Shown here: piece after piece, positions 19,391-52,300 of the stretch
Numbering within the stretch: the first letter of the stretch is position 1
Layout of the letters: every line of letters starts with the position of its first letter
Assembly: GCF_902652985.1 (NCBI RefSeq)
Contig: NC_047029.1
Coordinates: 34,658,001-34,722,000 of the forward strand
DNA: 64,000 bases
Origin: Pecten maximus
Lineage: Eukaryota
Direction of reading: 5' to 3'
Made by a program: the position numbers

Positions 19391-22300
19391 AAAAAACCGC
19401 CACGCCACAGAACACTCACTGGCGCGGATGTACTCGTACATGATATAATTAAATGGCACATTTTCCCTATAGATGCATCCCGATAATCACCAACTTACTA
19501 AATATATCTGATATAGGATACATAACTGAACACATCGACAGACAGTGAAATTCGAACAAAAAAATCGAAAGTCATAGATTTGGCGTAAAATCAATCGACT
19601 GATACCATGGAATAAATAATTCTATAAATAATGCCGTATGCACTTATGGTAACCTTTGTGAGAATGCCGTCTCCTTATAAATGAAAGTATATCCTTATCT
19701 AAAATTTTAACTTTTTAAATGTTGAATTCAACACTAGAAACAATCTTGTTTGGAAACCCGAATCTGGCCGAGTTCTCTAAGGTGAAGCCAAAACTGTTGT
19801 ATGCTAGTAACAGTAAAATTTAGAATCACATTTTGCTTTTGTTTGTATCAAAATAAATGAAAAAACATACTTGCAGGGACTCCCCTATTAGTTTTTTTTT
19901 TTTTTTTTTTTTTTTAATGAATTGTTCATTTGGATAGCAACGGGTACTTCAGGTATAAATCCCGTCCAGCAGGGATGGTCTAGTGTCACGTAACCCCGCA
20001 CGCTTATATCATCATTAAGATATTACACACAGTACAACTGCTCTATCCGGGTAGATCCAGTCTACAAACAAAACTCACGTGACAGCTAAAAGATAAAGGA
20101 AAAACAGAAAACATTTTTAACATGGAAAAACCTTTATCATTTTAGATCTGTACCTCGAGGATTTGTTTCTGTGCAACCTAAGCATTTCCATTGGACACAA
20201 CGATATGAGCCCATCCTTAAGTTCCCATCCCATCATGCTAGATTATAAACTGAATTTTATCTTTCCAGTAGTTAGATGAAGGGAGGATGGCTGCGTGGTG
20301 GTACCAAACTTTGTTGATATTTTTATTGGCGTGGAGTATAGGAACCTTCGGTAGGTGGTGTTTTCCTCAATGTAATGTAATGTATTCTTTATGATAATAA
20401 CCATACACTCAAAGTGGTACTGTCGATTTCGTGACGTAACATTAGAGGCCGTTGATATCATTGAAAATTATATCCACGTACATTGTATGCCAAAGCAGCG
20501 CATAATCGTGAATATTGACAGCAATTTTTCCAGAAATGGTTTAAACAAAATACATCTGTTATTTGTATCTTAGAAAACTTACGTGTGTATATACGATTAT
20601 GTCACGTGATGTACATTGAAGTGTATATGTTGTATTTATGGAGAAGAGTTCTTAAGTTGTAAGAACTTGTCTCTCACCTATTTGTCATTTTAAACAATAG
20701 AATATGTTTGGAGCAATCGACTGTAATGTTGTAGCTACATGTACTTTCTTTGATCTGATTTATTGTATATTGACGTGAGAGCGTTTACAGCGACTTCTAT
20801 TAATGTATGCCGGGGTTTATCCAGTGAGACTTTTCACAATCTAAAAATGGAAATAATTGGAGCTGAAGGATTTCACTGGGTATCCGAATTATTTTAATGT
20901 AAACCACACTAGTATTTGATATATGTAATCATTTAACCTTTTGATTACCTGATTGTCTAAACTGCACCTGTATATCTTTACCCATAATGCACCTGTATAT
21001 ATTTACCTATACTGTAGACTGGATTACCTGCCGTAGTTTTTCTACTCTCCGCTAGGCATCGAATTCGCTTCCAAAATATTCACGAGCGCAGCCTAGCGGA
21101 GAGAAATGGTACTAAGACAGGTAGTCCAGTCTACCTATACTGCACCTGTATATATTTACCCAAAAATTGACAACAGCCAATAAACGTTTCAGGAGATGAC
21201 CCATGTCATACACAACATATTCTACCGGATATGGACCATCGAGGTCTCAATTCTACCCTTGGTCATGGTAGTCATATCATCGATGACCACTACAATATCC
21301 CGTCTGGAGGACAATGGTTCCGCGTAGAATCACAACACATGCTGAACGATGTGTCACTCATTCACGAATTGAAGGCCTGTGGAACAGTGTTTCCCATCTA
21401 TTTGAAAGGTAGGTACAATTTCATGAGAGTAAAATCAAAATTTGCAAAATTGCAATATATGTATGATGTCTTGAAATGAACAGCGTCCGTATGACTGAGA
21501 GTACCTCTACATCCTGCATTCCCGGCTTTGCTGATTTACAGGATGTTTATCATACCATAATAACGATTACTTATAATGTTTAATTTATAGGAAAATATTG
21601 ACTTGGCTTCTTTTCAGTTGTAGTGCTTAGTAAAAGAGATGACGTTTTTGTTTCAATACAAACACAGCCATACACATATTTATCTTCATTACATAACTAA
21701 TTTAACTTTAAAACAACATACTTTTTCTCATTGTCAAACCATGACAGTATCATTGTCATAACCAACAGTTCATTCAACACGTTTTAAATTCACTGTTACG
21801 ACAAATTGAATTGTTGTTTCAGGAAGTTTACCTAGCACGAATGACGGCGTTGTCGACAGAGTTGCTTGCACGGTGGGCTTTGGCAGTCTATGTCAACACC
21901 CAATGACTATCCAGATAAAAAATTGTGGGGACTATTCAGTTTATTTCCTGGAACGACCAGCCAGTACATCGTCAGCATACTGCTTCTGTAAGTTTACAAA
22001 TTCATTCATGTAGTATTTTAATGGCGCTGATCCAAATCGCTAATAAAATGCATCGCACCCGCTTCCATGACGTAAGAATATTTATGAAGCGACTCTAGCT
22101 GATTATTATTTCAGAATACAAGGGCATAAGAGAACAACAGAGTGCTTAATTTGTATATAGGCCTGTTTCGTCGATAGGGACATCTCAATACGACTGTAGG
22201 AGTCTTGCTTGTCAGCATGACCAAAAACCTCAAACCCCACGATTATTGTCGTGTACCAGTTAGGGTAAAGTTTTTCGAGATGGTGGTGGGATTGACTATT

Positions 22301-49300: not shown

Positions 49301-52300
49301 ACGAATGTACTGGACATGGTCAGTGTAGTTACGGTAAGATTTGTTCATATTATTAACGGCTAATTAACACAGAAATGGTCATTAGGGTCGATAAATGGTG
49401 AGTAGTAAGGGTAGGTAACGTCTCCGTCATACTTGTATATATATACATGTAACATCTTAATATGTTGATATCTCCTAGATATACATAATATGTTACTTTG
49501 TTACATATATATACAGTAATATGTTCCCATGCTACAGATTATATTATAATGTTAACATTTAACATAATGCATTATAAAATATAATCTGTTGGTATATATT
49601 ATATATACTATGACGCCATGTTTACTTTATTACTAGTACTGCTGCACAATAGCTAATATAATAGGAGATTGGTGTGGTTATTTGAAGCATATATTTCAAG
49701 AATGTAAACAAAAAGTTATCCAATTCCATAAATATTCTGTAACACCTATGAATTCACCATAAAATATATTCAACAGGAATTTACCATCAATCTAGAGTTA
49801 GTATCACCATCGTCAAATATGAAACCAGGAAAAGAACTGAAAATATTGAAAATGTATTAAATACTTCTTGTTTGTTTGTAGGTACTTGTGTGTGCGATAC
49901 AAATTTCGGTGCTGCTGACTGCTCCATAGACATTCGTCAACCCCCTCGTATGTACGGTATTAACCTTGACACCAACGGTACATGCGATCTGAATACATGT
50001 CAGACGGCCATTGTGGAAGGAGAGACGTTCATCGATACCCTCAACCTTACCTGTCATAATACCTTATATCAGGTGAAATCTACATTTTGTTTTTAGTTCC
50101 GTTAGTTGCTTACACTTTACAAGTTTTATGTGTATTGCTACCTTTGCACGTAAAAACACTGGACAATAGAAAACGTATTAATATATTATGGATTAATCAA
50201 TAAAATAAGTATTTTCGTTCAAAAATGCTTTATCACGTGAAATCTTCTAAAAAAACAAACGCATACGCCGATTTCTCATAAAACAAATCCACCCAAGCAC
50301 GTGCAATTGTTTTGTAGGTCTTCATTTTATGGTCAATTTCTATTAGGTCAAATACAGAATATAACATTTATCATTAATCTAGCATCATTTACAACAAAGG
50401 TAATAATTTTGATGTATTGTTTTCAGTTTGACCCCAGAACATAAATCTTTCACCGTCCTGAAAACACTTTTCAAACATATGAATACGGCACGTCGTGCAC
50501 ACTAAGCTTGTCCTCAGGGACGTATCATCCTTTGAATGTCTTCACGTGTAGTATAGGGAATCCTTAATGTATGTTTAAATGTATTCTATTTTTAGATACA
50601 CAGGGATGGCACCGAAATGTTGATTATGAAGTGGAAATCACACGCCCAATTCAATACCCTTGTGGAGGTCTTCTGTCCATTTCCGAATGTACTGAGCGAT
50701 CCGGATAAGGACGGATTCGCCTACAGATGGTCAGTCACGGTCAGCAATGACGGTCACCACCCAGGACAGGTGTCGGACCTGATAGTCTATAACGGAATAT
50801 GCCAAAATGTCGTGCAAAATGAGAACACATCGTCAGTTCTGTTGGAAGTATGCATCATACCAGTGTTTCTGATATGCCTGTTATTCAATATTGTCTGTAA
50901 GAATCGTCTTCGAAATTTAGAAAATTACAAATGTGTGCTGCCAAGCATACACGGATTCTTATTGATCAAAACTTGACTAAATGTATTTCTAGTATAAAAA
51001 CAAAACAATGTATTCAAATAAATCATTGAAGACACAAGAGGCTCAGTATCACTTATCTTGATATTTTAGTGAATGTACATGTTTTACAAATACGTTTTGT
51101 ATTTTGGTTTTGCCTCCGAGTACCATACATTGCACTCAACATTTTTATTCAGCTAATATTCAATTTTGGTTCCAAACAATATAAAATGTAAATCAAGTTG
51201 GCTAACACTCAACACTCTACCTCGAGGTGGGGTTGTTCATGTTATCCCAGACTTAATTTGATACAAATCCTTTTATCCATACAGAAAAAAGGTTTTAAAA
51301 AAATCCTTTTTAATATTCATCAAGGGAGACCTTGTTGATACTTTGCTTCCTTCACCATGTAATCCTACAAACCGCATTGGATTGAAATCCACCGATCAGG
51401 TCGTTTAGAAGACAAAATTCTTCCTATTGCCTTCGCTATAACTATAACTTGTTTTTAAAGTGTCAATGTTCACTTTGATTTTATAAACCTACAATATTTC
51501 AATATTGTTTCCATTTTAATGAACACGATATCTAATTTGACTGTTATTCTCATATGATCCCATTGGCGTCCGTGAATAACAGTTAATGCCTCATGAATTT
51601 TTCTGCTTTATATGTCGATGTTTCCTATTGTTTGAAAATTTTCCTTAATTTGGTTTGATTTTTTTTTATCTCTAACATCCCGTTATTGAAAGACATTTCG
51701 TATTTCTTTAAGGACAACTTTTGCTTCATCAATGGCTTCTGTGTACAAGAGGGAAATACCAAGTCATCGGATTCGTGCTGGATATGCCAGATAACTGACC
51801 AGGGGTCAATATTTCAATGGAGCAGAAATCCAGGTAATTATAATTAGTTTTGAATCCTGGTCAGGACAGTAAAATGTCGCCTTCGTCATGTCTTTATATC
51901 TCGAAGGAATTACTATCGTTACTGCGATTTCTTTTTCTTATCGAACTTCTTTTTAGATCCCTTTATACTGATTTGTTCTGTTATCTCCATAGGAATCGAC
52001 AACTGTGCCGACAAACAAACGAACACCTCTACATTGGTACAGATGAATGAAACACGTAAGTTTGTTTTAAAATATAAATCAACTTAAAGTCACGTTGATT
52101 GTTCAGAGGATTGATAACTTGCAGTCTTGGACTAATCTGAAATAGTCTTTAAAGCAATTCCTGTGCGAGTCTAAAGAACTCGAGATATCGTGAGTTTTAC
52201 AATGTATATAACTTGTTTTGCTCGAGTTATATCAATAATATCAATATTTAATTGAAAAATGAATGCATTACTTTCATCTTATTGCATGTTTTCCTTGTTA

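What the first reader, a model, noticed from the sequence alone, without database searches (positions are those of the whole stretch)
21193..52055. One giant VWDE-like protein built by in-frame triplication of a whole 15-exon, 827-aa module
Seen in sequence: a roughly 10.7-kb unit occurs three times. Its coding total is 2481 nt (divisible by 3), it starts and ends in phase 1, and exon 15 (...VNKT) splices in frame to exon 1 of the next copy (SLPPKFE...). No terminal exon, signal-peptide exon or second D8C lies between copies. Established knowledge: canonical VWDE has a single D8C followed by a single VWD. Inference: this is one gene of about 2600 aa with beads-on-a-string VWD-C8-EGF assemblies, rather than three paralogous genes. 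It would resemble the tandem D assemblies of mucins, zonadhesin and FCGBP but be independently derived. It is a candidate matrix, mucus or adhesion scaffold with copy-number variation.
[Added by the scan's program, not by the reader: the finding's places include an assembly gap (unread letters, written N; its length is only estimated) at 23517 to 23616. Whether the letters on both sides are continuous or in frame is not known: test that first.]
Basis: partly seen in the sequence, partly recalled or inferred. Interest (0 to 1): 0.65.

Follow-up and report, generated by a model that had tools for sequence, protein, structure and literature searches.

The report
Scallop VWDE-like gene with tandem modules
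A king-scallop gene for a large secreted, cysteine-rich protein has grown by repeating a whole 15-exon block in frame, but the three-copy count rests on an imperfect assembly, and similar multi-block proteins are already annotated in other molluscs.

Summary
The core observation is correct. Copy 2 (31775-41827) has 15 exons totalling 2481 nt (827 aa) and is phase 1 at both ends. The junctions 31170->31775 and 41827->42432 are exactly those of the RefSeq protein XP_033762813.1 (Pecten maximus), which maps to the window with one GT-AG solution at 24 of 24 junctions.

The count of three needs qualifying. Copy 3 is complete apart from a 1-nt deletion in exon 7. Copy 1 is incomplete:
- Exons 1-2 are absent, and the N gap lies where they should be.
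- Exons 7-9 and the first 16 nt of exon 10 are deleted.
- Exons 6 and 13 are frameshifted.
As assembled, no 2600-aa frame can be read. The gap cannot be shown to be continuous or in frame.

The one-gene reading is well supported:
- There is only one signal-peptide exon (20287-20350) and one D8C exon pair.
- All 6 Mizuhopecten isoforms chain two modules.
- Abalone proteins carry three modules, duplicated independently.
- Exon 15 is a former terminal exon whose internal GTAAGT donor links the modules.

No paper in the library searched describes these loci. Verdict: a real but only moderately novel variant of the VWDE family, with 2-3 modules. Function is inferred only, as a secreted matrix or adhesion scaffold.

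The parts
20287..20350 (+). Candidate first coding exon: start codon and signal peptide (MAAWWYQTLLIFLLAWSIGTF). It ends in phase 1 on a GTAGGT donor.
   Evidence: tblastn of the Argopecten N-terminus gives E 0.004 in a 9.8-kb search space. The exon joins 21193 in frame. It lies outside the finding's start.
21193..21408 (+). D8C exon 1. Ends in phase 1.
   Evidence: tblastn to P0003, P0004 and P0002 at 73-79% identity.
21823..21987 (+). D8C exon 2. Ends in phase 1 on a perfect GTAAGT donor.
   Evidence: Pfam D8C_UMOD scores 21.7 bits on this exon alone, below the 27-bit cut-off. The same domain passes in orthologues P0003 and P0004.
23517..23616 (.). Assembly gap, located where e1 and e2 of copy 1 would be expected.
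   Evidence: Similarity to copies 2 and 3 starts at 23629-23639. e1 and e2 were not found in 21990-31200. The gap was not filled.
23617..31170 (+). Copy 1, incomplete. Exons: e3 23735-23880, e4 24439-24649, e5 24995-25080, e6 26438-26503 (4 nt short), truncated e10 26585-26721, e11 27626-27809, e12 28766-28956, e13 29578-29830 (1 nt extra near 29675), e14 30468-30588, e15 31108-31170.
   Evidence: P0001 residues 1-115 map to e13 (from 29669), e14 and e15.
26580..26585 (+). Junction of a 1.5-kb deletion relative to copy 2 (35690-37220). It removes e7-e9 and the acceptor plus first 16 nt of e10. The short motif AGATATGG occurs at both breakpoints.
   Evidence: All 12 indels private to copy 1's head lie in the first 1000 or last 500 alignment columns.
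31171..31774 (+). Inter-module intron between copy 1 and copy 2.
   Evidence: GT-AG, used by P0001. It is 600/604 identical to 41828-42431.
31775..41827 (+). Copy 2, complete: 15 exons, 2481 nt, 827 aa. Exons: 31775-32034, 32349-32435, 32819-32964, 33540-33750, 34096-34181, 35538-35607, 35766-35954, 36150-36358, 36486-36744, 37205-37357, 38290-38473, 39430-39620, 40220-40471, 41108-41228, 41765-41827.
   Evidence: Exact mapping of P0001 residues 116-942. The VWD C-terminal part in e8 scores 26.9 bits.
41828..42431 (+). Inter-module intron between copy 2 and copy 3.
42432..52087 (+). Copy 3, the terminal module. Exons: e1 42432-42691, e2 43006-43092, e3 43550-43695, e4 44271-44481, e5 44827-44912, e6 46270-46339, e7 46513-46700 (1 nt missing near 46537), e8 46896-47092 (12 nt shorter, in frame), e9 47317-47575, e10 48100-48252, e11 49150-49333, e12 49882-50072, e13 50596-50847, e14 51713-51833, e15 51993-52055. 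Read-through of e15 runs to the stop at 52085-52087.
   Evidence: The tail e9-e15 gives dN/dS 0.28 against copy 2. The read-through tail RKFVLKYKST* resembles the Mizuhopecten X1 and Argopecten C-termini.

Best explanation
This is one gene on the + strand of the king scallop (Pecten maximus) genome. Its start codon is at 20287 and its stop at 52085-52087. It encodes a secreted protein made of a signal peptide, a D8C domain, and then a chain of about 827-aa modules. Each module contains Ig_VWDE, an unnamed beta-rich part, VWD, a C8-like part, one EGF-like part and a cysteine-rich tail.

HOW THE CHAIN IS BUILT.
- The module is a 15-exon, 2481-nt cassette that is phase 1 at both ends.
- D8C exon 2 also ends in phase 1, so any number of modules stays in frame.
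- The link between modules is a perfect GTAAGT donor inside exon 15. Exon 15 is the former terminal coding exon.
- In the last module exon 15 is read through to a conserved short tail. In the internal modules it splices to the exon 1 acceptor of the next copy.
- The array grew by tandem duplication of about 10.66 kb, most simply by unequal crossing-over.

HOW MANY MODULES.
- Two copies (2 and 3) are complete.
- The first copy is incomplete in this assembly, and part of that is probably poor sequence beside the gap.
- The real protein therefore has two or three modules, about 1808 or about 2635 aa.

WHAT IS SHOWN: exon structure, phases, junctions, domain families, and the comparison with other species.

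WHAT IS INFERRED:
- The duplication mechanism.
- The function: a secreted, disulfide-rich, N-glycosylated extracellular scaffold or adhesion protein.
- Cleavage at the conserved basic motif in each module.

The confidence given is for the one-gene, chained-module statement with two or three modules. For exactly three intact modules I would say about 0.4.
For: - P0001 (XP_033762813.1) maps to the window with exactly one GT-AG solution at 24 of 24 junctions. It crosses both module boundaries.
- Copy 2 sums to 2481 nt. The signal exon, D8C-1, D8C-2 and e15 all end in phase 1. D8C-2 and all three e15 copies have GTAAGT donors.
- There is only one signal-peptide exon and one D8C exon pair in the window.
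- Copy 3 has AG/GT at 15 of 15 exons. Its tail gives dN/dS 0.28 with dS 0.158 and has no stops.
- All 6 of 6 Mizuhopecten LOC110466572 isoforms share one N-terminus and run from module 1 into module 2. Their C-termini diverge exactly after 'KNET', the position homologous to the e15 donor.
- Copy 3's read-through tail aligns with the Argopecten C-terminus (E 0.007). It shares KYKS with Mizuhopecten X1.
- Internal e15 copies carry a 4-nt deletion that truncates that tail, as expected if it is spliced out.
- Pfam finds D8C_UMOD, Ig_VWDE and VWD in P0001, P0003 and P0004.
- Sequence relatives in the PDB are FCGBP, VWF, UMOD and GP2.
- One module has 39 Cys and 13 N-x-S/T sequons. There is no C-terminal transmembrane helix, unlike the paralogues and the abalone proteins.
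- A basic cluster follows the same cysteine in 16 of 16 aligned module rows.
Against: - As assembled, the frame is broken five times: e1-e2 of copy 1 are absent at the gap, e6 is 4 nt short, a 1.5-kb deletion removes e7-e10', e13 has 1 extra nt, and copy 3's e7 lacks 1 nt.
- The only annotated protein at the locus is a 1259-aa fragment bounded by two of these lesions.
- No annotated model in the 148-2000 aa range covers copy 3's tail.
- I saw no transcript data. A RefSeq model can rest partly on protein homology.
- Internal e15 copies keep a read-through stop and an ATTAAA, so shorter isoforms are possible.
- C8 and EGF are below Pfam's cut-offs.
- No experiment bears on function.
- No structure could be predicted.
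Confidence: 0.8

Rival explanations
1. Only two modules are real or functional. Copy 1 is either a decayed partial duplicate that lies in a long first intron (D8C exon 2 would splice to 31775), or a misplaced or uncollapsed piece of the assembly. The protein would be about 1808 aa, as in Mizuhopecten.
For: - Copy 1 carries 4 lesions and starts at an assembly gap.
- D8C-2 to e1 of copy 2 is in frame.
- Mizuhopecten has two modules.
- The passages I read of the published P. maximus assembly paper describe noisy long reads, wtdbg2, and gap filling during polishing. The word 'haplotig' does not occur in its text (PMC7191990).
Against: - P0001 includes copy 1's e13-e15 spliced to copy 2's e1.
- Seven copy 1 exons are intact with AG/GT, and dN/dS against copy 2 is 0.39-0.41 on few changes.
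- Copy 1's private indels sit at its two ends only (12, against 2 and 2 for the other copies). That looks like bad sequence, not uniform decay.
- Branch lengths of 36, 9 and 29 do not look like a copy 1/copy 2 allele pair.
- Copy 1's tail is contiguous with copy 2, with no N between them.
Confidence: 0.35
2. The gene also, or mainly, makes shorter products that end after module 1 or 2. These would arise by reading through the internal e15 donor to the nearby stop and polyadenylating there.
For: Read-through of internal e15 gives '...VNKTCKF*'. An ATTAAA follows 9 nt after the stop in both internal copies. The same exon is the terminal exon in the one-module Argopecten protein.
Against: - None of the 6 Mizuhopecten isoforms ends at the module 1 boundary (0 of 6).
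- The internal donor is a perfect GTAAGT.
- The read-through tail is truncated by a 4-nt deletion in internal copies.
- ATTAAA is common by chance in 65% A+T sequence.
Confidence: 0.15
3. These are three separate paralogous genes in tandem, each with its own start and end.
For: A tandem array of near-identical units. The original Mizuhopecten genome-project annotation split its locus into three protein entries of 481, 849 and 591 aa.
Against: - Copies 2 and 3 have no signal-peptide or D8C exon.
- The units begin and end in phase 1 with no start codon exon.
- RefSeq models in three scallop species chain the modules.
Confidence: 0.03

Closest known systems
Mizuhopecten yessoensis LOC110466572 (XP_021378823.1 to XP_021378828.1, 1586-1892 aa)
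   Same: About 70% identity to P0001. It has signal peptide, D8C and chained modules of the same roughly 800 aa. Its e15-type linker ('DCKDKLKETTTAGA|VLPFFEI') joins the modules. Its C-terminus is read through or alternatively spliced at the same point. It has no transmembrane helix.
   Different: It has two modules, not two to three. It has an extra Cys-rich 'CLINGxC' exon before the e15 equivalent, which isoform X5 skips.
Haliotis rufescens LOC124132030 (XP_046351564.2, 3009 aa) and the H. cracherodii 3003-aa protein
   Same: Three near-complete copies of the same module in one protein, each with a VWD.
   Different: - 27-28% identity.
- The modules form their own clade (100/100), so the triplication is independent.
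- There is a C-terminal transmembrane helix.
- Each module has canonical RRKR-type sites.
Single-module VWDE-like proteins: P. maximus XP_033761549.1 on the same chromosome-scale record, Mizuhopecten OWF38191.1, an oyster protein, and vertebrate VWDE
   Same: D8C, Ig_VWDE, VWD and EGF-like order. Single-module proteins are the common form: most of the 150 best hits are about 1000 aa with one full-length match.
   Different: - One module only.
- Molluscan paralogues have a transmembrane anchor and several C-terminal Cys-rich repeats.
- Orthology to vertebrate VWDE was not tested.
- The role of vertebrate VWDE in appendage regeneration is only quoted from a figure legend in PMC8930769.
FCGBP, zonadhesin and gel-forming mucins (tandem D assemblies)
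   Same: Several VWD-based units in one secreted, cysteine-rich protein. FCGBP and VWF are the best solved-structure relatives by sequence (8rde E 3.9e-18, 7zwh E 1.9e-13).
   Different: - From my own knowledge, their unit is VWD-C8-TIL-E of about 400 aa. Here the unit is 827 aa with Ig_VWDE and an EGF-like part.
- No TIL was found and C8 is below the cut-off.
- There is no PTS-rich region: S+T+P is 20%.
Uromodulin / GP2 N-terminal D8C (D10C) decoy module
   Same: The N-terminal region of the family profile matches UMOD and GP2 chains (E 1e-9 to 3e-9). VWDE is listed among D10C proteins in PMC8930769 (legend passage).
   Different: No ZP module. Glycan-decoy function was not tested.

Membership tests
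VWDE-like proteins (Pfam architecture D8C_UMOD + Ig_VWDE + VWD + EGF) | N-terminal D8C (uromodulin-like) domain | tested here: met
   PF23283 passes its cut-off in orthologues P0003 (27.2 against 27 bits) and P0004 (37.2 bits). Window exons 21193-21408 and 21823-21987 align to those regions at 73-79% identity. Exon 2 alone scores 21.7 bits, below the cut-off.
VWDE-like proteins | Ig_VWDE domain (PF25776) before the VWD | tested here: met
   P0001, which this window encodes, scores 32.5 bits against a 28.1 cut-off. Single e1 exons alone give no hit.
VWDE-like proteins | VWD domain (PF00094) | tested here: met
   P0001 scores 60 bits. Window e8 of copy 2 scores 26.9 bits and e8 of copy 3 scores 26.4 bits, against a 22.9 cut-off.
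VWDE-like proteins | One D8C followed by one VWD (canonical single-module layout) | tested here: not met
   At least two VWD-bearing modules follow one D8C in the window. P0003 has 2 VWD stretches.
VWDE-like proteins | EGF domains after the VWD | tested here: inconclusive
   There is one EGF-like stretch per module. EGF_Teneurin scores 21.4 bits in P0001 against a 24.3 cut-off, and 17.8 bits on the exon. Reelin EGF matches the family profile at E 1.4e-5.
Mucin / FCGBP / zonadhesin type D assembly | VWD followed by C8 and TIL domains | tested here: not met
   C8 scores 14.7 bits against a 23.7 cut-off on e10 and is not listed for whole proteins. TIL is not listed in any scan.
Gel-forming mucins | Long Pro/Thr/Ser-rich O-glycosylated region | tested here: not met
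   S+T+P is 20.1% of the module. No coding tandem repeat was reported inside the exons.
Single transcription unit (one gene) | Transcripts that cross the module boundaries | not testable with these tools
   Only annotation models were available. No reads or cDNA could be consulted.

The most novel reading that the evidence does not exclude
The 827-aa module is a self-contained, phase-symmetric cassette that molluscs expand and contract repeatedly by unequal crossing-over: 1 copy in Argopecten, 2 in Mizuhopecten, 2-3 in Pecten, and 3 independently in abalone. Every module carries a conserved convertase-type basic site between the VWD and the C8-like part. The giant precursor would then work as a polyprotein. 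It would be cut into repeated 'C8-EGF-tail-Ig-VWD' pieces, so that module number sets the dose or the valency of an extracellular adhesive or matrix unit.
Probability: 0.15. Interest if true: 0.55.

Novelty: new variant of a known kind. Interest (0 to 1): 0.3.

Why it matters
It gives a clean, fully mapped example of how a whole multi-exon gene body can be chained in frame. The cassette is phase 1 at both ends, and a strong splice donor already sat inside the terminal coding exon.

The same 800-aa module has multiplied independently in scallops and abalone, so there may be a recurring advantage in valency for this poorly understood VWDE-like family.

In practice, it flags a locus in the scallop reference where the annotation is a 1259-aa fragment bounded by frame-breaking lesions. 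The true gene is probably 1.8-2.6 thousand codons long.

It does not open a long-standing question, and the function remains inferred.

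Tried and rejected
- The repeat finder was swamped by a 19-nt minisatellite and was replaced by self-BLAST.
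- Head-only and tail-only module trees were unresolved. I therefore dropped the idea of assigning the Pecten copies to 'module 1' or 'module 2' types and of inferring a hidden module in the gap.
- ESM Atlas gave no usable hit for the e13-e14 tail.
- PDB sequence searches with single exons e13 and e4 gave 0 hits at E <= 1.
- Structure prediction of the one-module relative P0004 (alignment A1) was not accepted twice. No fold or fold search was done.
- The proteomics hit 'VWDE' A0A210PR16 in Yesso scallop mantle (PMC9641012, one table passage) has a different accession from every member of the loci studied here. It was not used as expression evidence.
- Rfam and tRNA scans of the window found nothing.
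- Nineteen flank ORFs gave no Pfam hit.
- Three separate genes: rejected (see rivals).

Full report
WHAT THE WINDOW IS.
[quoted passage not shown] Relatives turn up in three other scallops. P0001 then maps onto the window exactly. For each of its 24 exon junctions there is exactly one GT-AG solution that reproduces the protein. The window is therefore the locus that this model annotates, in king scallop or an identical genome. Nothing in it is human. An Alba-domain ORF (RPP25-like) lies at 13945-14211 on the minus strand. A TERT C-terminal ORF lies at 61658-61945 on the minus strand.

THE REPEAT.
Self-BLAST shows a tandem array.
- 23639-26580 matches 32716-35689 (97.1%) and 43447-46412 (96.3%).
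- 26585-36385 matches 37221-47118 (95.2% over 9955 columns).
- The last 5 kb of copy 3 is older. Introns are 70-81% identical to copy 2 and exon patches are 88-96% identical.
- The period from e1 to e1 is 10,657 nt.

COPY 2.
Its 15 exons (31775-41827) sum to 2481 nt, or 827 codons, which is P0001 residues 116-942. The unit enters with two bases that complete a codon and leaves with one base, so it is phase 1 at both ends.

THE GAP, TESTED FIRST.
The N run 23517-23616 lies between D8C exon 2 (which ends at 21987) and e3 of copy 1 (23735).
- Similarity to the other copies begins at 23629-23639. That point corresponds to intron 2 of the other copies.
- e1 and e2 of copy 1 are nowhere in 21990-31200.
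- The 1.5 kb before the gap matches the inter-module intron no better than shuffled sequence (score 26, against a control maximum of 33).
- D8C exon 2 ends in phase 1 and e3 starts in phase 0. The letters on the two sides are therefore not in frame with each other, and continuity cannot be shown.
- e1 plus e2 (347 nt) would restore the frame if they lie in the gap.

COPIES 1 AND 3.
Copy 1:
- 10 of 15 exons can be located and 7 are intact.
- e6 has four small deletions within about 90 aligned columns: three inside the exon (net 4 nt) and one just past its donor.
- A 1.5-kb deletion relative to copy 2 (35690-37220) removes e7, e8, e9 and the acceptor plus first 16 nt of e10. The motif AGATATGG occurs at both breakpoints.
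- e13 has one extra T near 29675. P0001's start codon lies right there.
Copy 3:
- All 15 exons have AG/GT.
- e8 is 12 nt shorter, in frame.
- e7 lacks one base near 46537. P0001 runs into the shifted frame there and stops.
So the annotated 1259-aa protein is simply the stretch between two frame-breaking lesions.

ARE THE LESIONS REAL?
- Copy 3's exons downstream of its frameshift (e9-e15, 1223 nt) have no stop or indel. They give dN/dS 0.28 against copy 2 at dS 0.158. The frameshift is therefore recent or an error.
- In the three-way alignment of the heads, copy 1 has 12 private indel events against 2 and 2 for the others. All 12 lie in the first 1000 or last 500 columns, next to the gap and next to the deletion junction.
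- I read passages of the published P. maximus genome paper (PMC7191990). They describe PacBio CLR reads assembled with wtdbg2, Arrow and short-read polishing, gap filling during polishing, and 1.71% heterozygosity. The word 'haplotig' does not occur in the text.
- If the window comes from that assembly, which I infer only from the exact match to the RefSeq protein, poor local sequence in a 95-97% identical array is a reasonable explanation. I cannot prove it.

ONE GENE OR SEVERAL?
- The N-terminal parts of the Mizuhopecten, Argopecten and Ylistrum proteins hit the window only at 21180-22007.
- Nothing upstream of 23639 is repeated.
- A signal-peptide exon lies at 20287-20350: MAAWWYQTLLIFLLAWSIGTF, with a GTAGGT donor, ending in phase 1. 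It joins 21193 in frame. Copies 2 and 3 therefore have no start of their own.
- Mizuhopecten LOC110466572 has six RefSeq isoforms of 1586-1892 aa. All six share one N-terminus and run from module 1 into module 2. The earlier genome-project annotation had cut that locus into three proteins.
- Argopecten has one module in both isoforms, 997 and 998 aa.
- Ylistrum has at least two modules.

HOW THE MODULES ARE LINKED.
- Exon 15 corresponds to the terminal coding exon of the one-module Argopecten protein ('GISDCHDNRTNISTSGLDNGKCKFMI...').
- In all three Pecten copies a perfect GTAAGT lies inside that reading frame.
- In copy 3, read-through gives '...NETRKFVLKYKST*' with the stop at 52085. This resembles the Mizuhopecten X1 end '...NETCKLYKYKSNPFGR*'.
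- The Mizuhopecten isoforms diverge exactly after 'NET'. That fits use of this position as an alternative donor even in a terminal module.
- In the internal Pecten copies a 4-nt deletion cuts the read-through tail to 'CKF*'.
- D8C exon 2 ends in the same phase with the same donor hexamer. Any number of modules, including a skip of copy 1, therefore stays in frame.
- The two inter-module introns are 600/604 identical. Homology to copy 3's 3' flank is lost about 50 nt past the donor, which places one duplication breakpoint there.
- The identity pattern is: tails of copies 1 and 2 alike, heads of copies 2 and 3 alike, and the tail of copy 3 old. This fits one unequal crossing-over in intron 8 of a two-module ancestor. 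The 97% identity of copy 1's head does not fit that model without gene conversion or misassembly. This history is inference.

WHAT THE PROTEIN IS.
- Pfam on P0001, P0003 and P0004 gives D8C_UMOD, Ig_VWDE and VWD above their cut-offs.
- The C8 match (14.7 bits) and the EGF matches (up to 21.4 bits) are below their cut-offs. No TIL domain was found.
- By sequence, the nearest solved structures are FCGBP and VWF for the VWD, and UMOD and GP2 for the D8C.
- One module has 39 cysteines and 13 N-glycosylation sequons.
- The scallop multi-module proteins have no transmembrane helix. The single-module paralogues, the oyster protein and the abalone proteins end in one.
- In 16 of 16 aligned module rows a basic cluster follows the same cysteine in the linker encoded by e9. 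It reads RRSRS, KRSRS or RKSRS in scallop modules and ERRKRRS in abalone. This is a candidate convertase site, based on the motif only.
- My reading of function is inference from these families: a secreted, disulfide-linked, glycosylated extracellular scaffold or adhesion protein.

HOW UNUSUAL IS IT?
- Two abalone proteins of 3003 and 3009 aa each hold three near-complete modules with three VWD domains.
- In a maximum-likelihood tree of 15 modules, the abalone modules form one clade (100/100) and the scallop multi-module gene's modules form another (100/99). These are separate from the single-module paralogues. The duplications are therefore independent. Rows left out: P0011 (unnamed source), P0012 (fragmentary modules) and the partial modules.
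- An exhaustive HMMER search with the one-module protein found 1700 proteins at E <= 0.001. Of the 150 listed, most are about 1000 aa with one full-length match, and 10 are 1800 aa or longer.
- I fetched 6 of those 10. The other four were P0008, already analysed; P0055 and P0087, whose many matched stretches lie in the D8C region; and P0058, with one stretch.
- 5 of the 6 fetched have two or more module matches.

LITERATURE.
- Searches for VWDE with scallop, for the protein name with bivalve, for VWDE with D8C and VWD, for the five locus and accession identifiers, and for VWDE or tandem VWD domains in invertebrates found no paper describing these loci or a multi-module VWDE.
- For all listed papers except three I saw search listings only. 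I read passages of PMC9641012, PMC8930769 and PMC7191990.

LEFT OUT OR NOT POSSIBLE.
- I never searched, scanned or folded a joined spliced model of my own. Window exons were searched one at a time. The stored RefSeq protein stood in for the spliced form of copy 2.
- No transcript reads, read depth or eukaryotic genome collection were available.
- Structure prediction was not accepted.
- The hypothetical lengths are arithmetic from exon lengths, not read sequences. They are 2635 aa for three full modules and 1808 aa for copies 2 and 3 only.

VERDICT.
The one-gene, chained-module interpretation is well supported. The number three and the 2600-aa size are not secured by this assembly. The thing is a lineage-specific variant of a known family. 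It is already partly captured by automatic annotation, and no paper in the library searched describes it.

Noticed in passing
P0002 (Ylistrum balloti XP_060064920.1) compared with window 46513-46602: The Ylistrum 'LOW QUALITY' model shifts into the same alternative frame of exon 7 of its last module, within about three codons of where Pecten copy 3 does ('VTPCNP|RLTLSVC' against 'VTRC|TLRLTCF'). Two independent errors at nearly the same spot would be a coincidence. It remains unexplained.
   Followed up: partly
window 3074-6707: A 19-nt minisatellite with about 191 copies at 93% match. It fills 3.6 kb and swamped the repeat finder.
   Followed up: no
window 9712-11413 and 12406-12967: A 28-nt minisatellite (about 60 units in two blocks), and a 40/129-nt repeat array just upstream of the Alba-domain ORF.
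   Followed up: no
window 54024-55544: A 155-nt satellite, 9.9 copies at 91% match, about 2 kb downstream of the gene's stop.
   Followed up: no
window 25179-25842, 34280-34942, 45011-45674: Intron 5 of each module copy holds three to four diverged (68-70%) tandem units of about 158 nt. This is possibly an old mobile-element or satellite insertion that predates the duplications.
   Followed up: no
window 13945-14211 (-) and 61658-61945 (-): An Alba-domain ORF (RPP25/RPP25L-like, 29.9 bits) lies upstream. A TERT C-terminal extension ORF (35.7 bits) lies downstream, so TERT's 3' end converges on the VWDE-like gene.
   Followed up: partly
window 36486-36744 (e9 of copy 2) and 47317-47575 (e9 of copy 3): A conserved basic cluster (KIRRSRS / KVRRSRS) follows a conserved cysteine. 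It is present in 16 of 16 aligned modules, including abalone (ERRKRRS). It is a possible convertase cleavage site in every module.
   Followed up: partly
Mizuhopecten proteins OWF38188.1-OWF38191.1: The accession numbers of the split multi-module locus and of the single-module paralogue are consecutive. This suggests that the two VWDE-like genes are neighbours in Mizuhopecten. In P. maximus the paralogue XP_033761549.1 is on the same chromosome-scale record but not in this window.
   Followed up: no
window 43149-43336: A 53-nt repeat (3.5 copies) in intron 2 of copy 3. TRF reports no matching array in copies 1 or 2.
   Followed up: no
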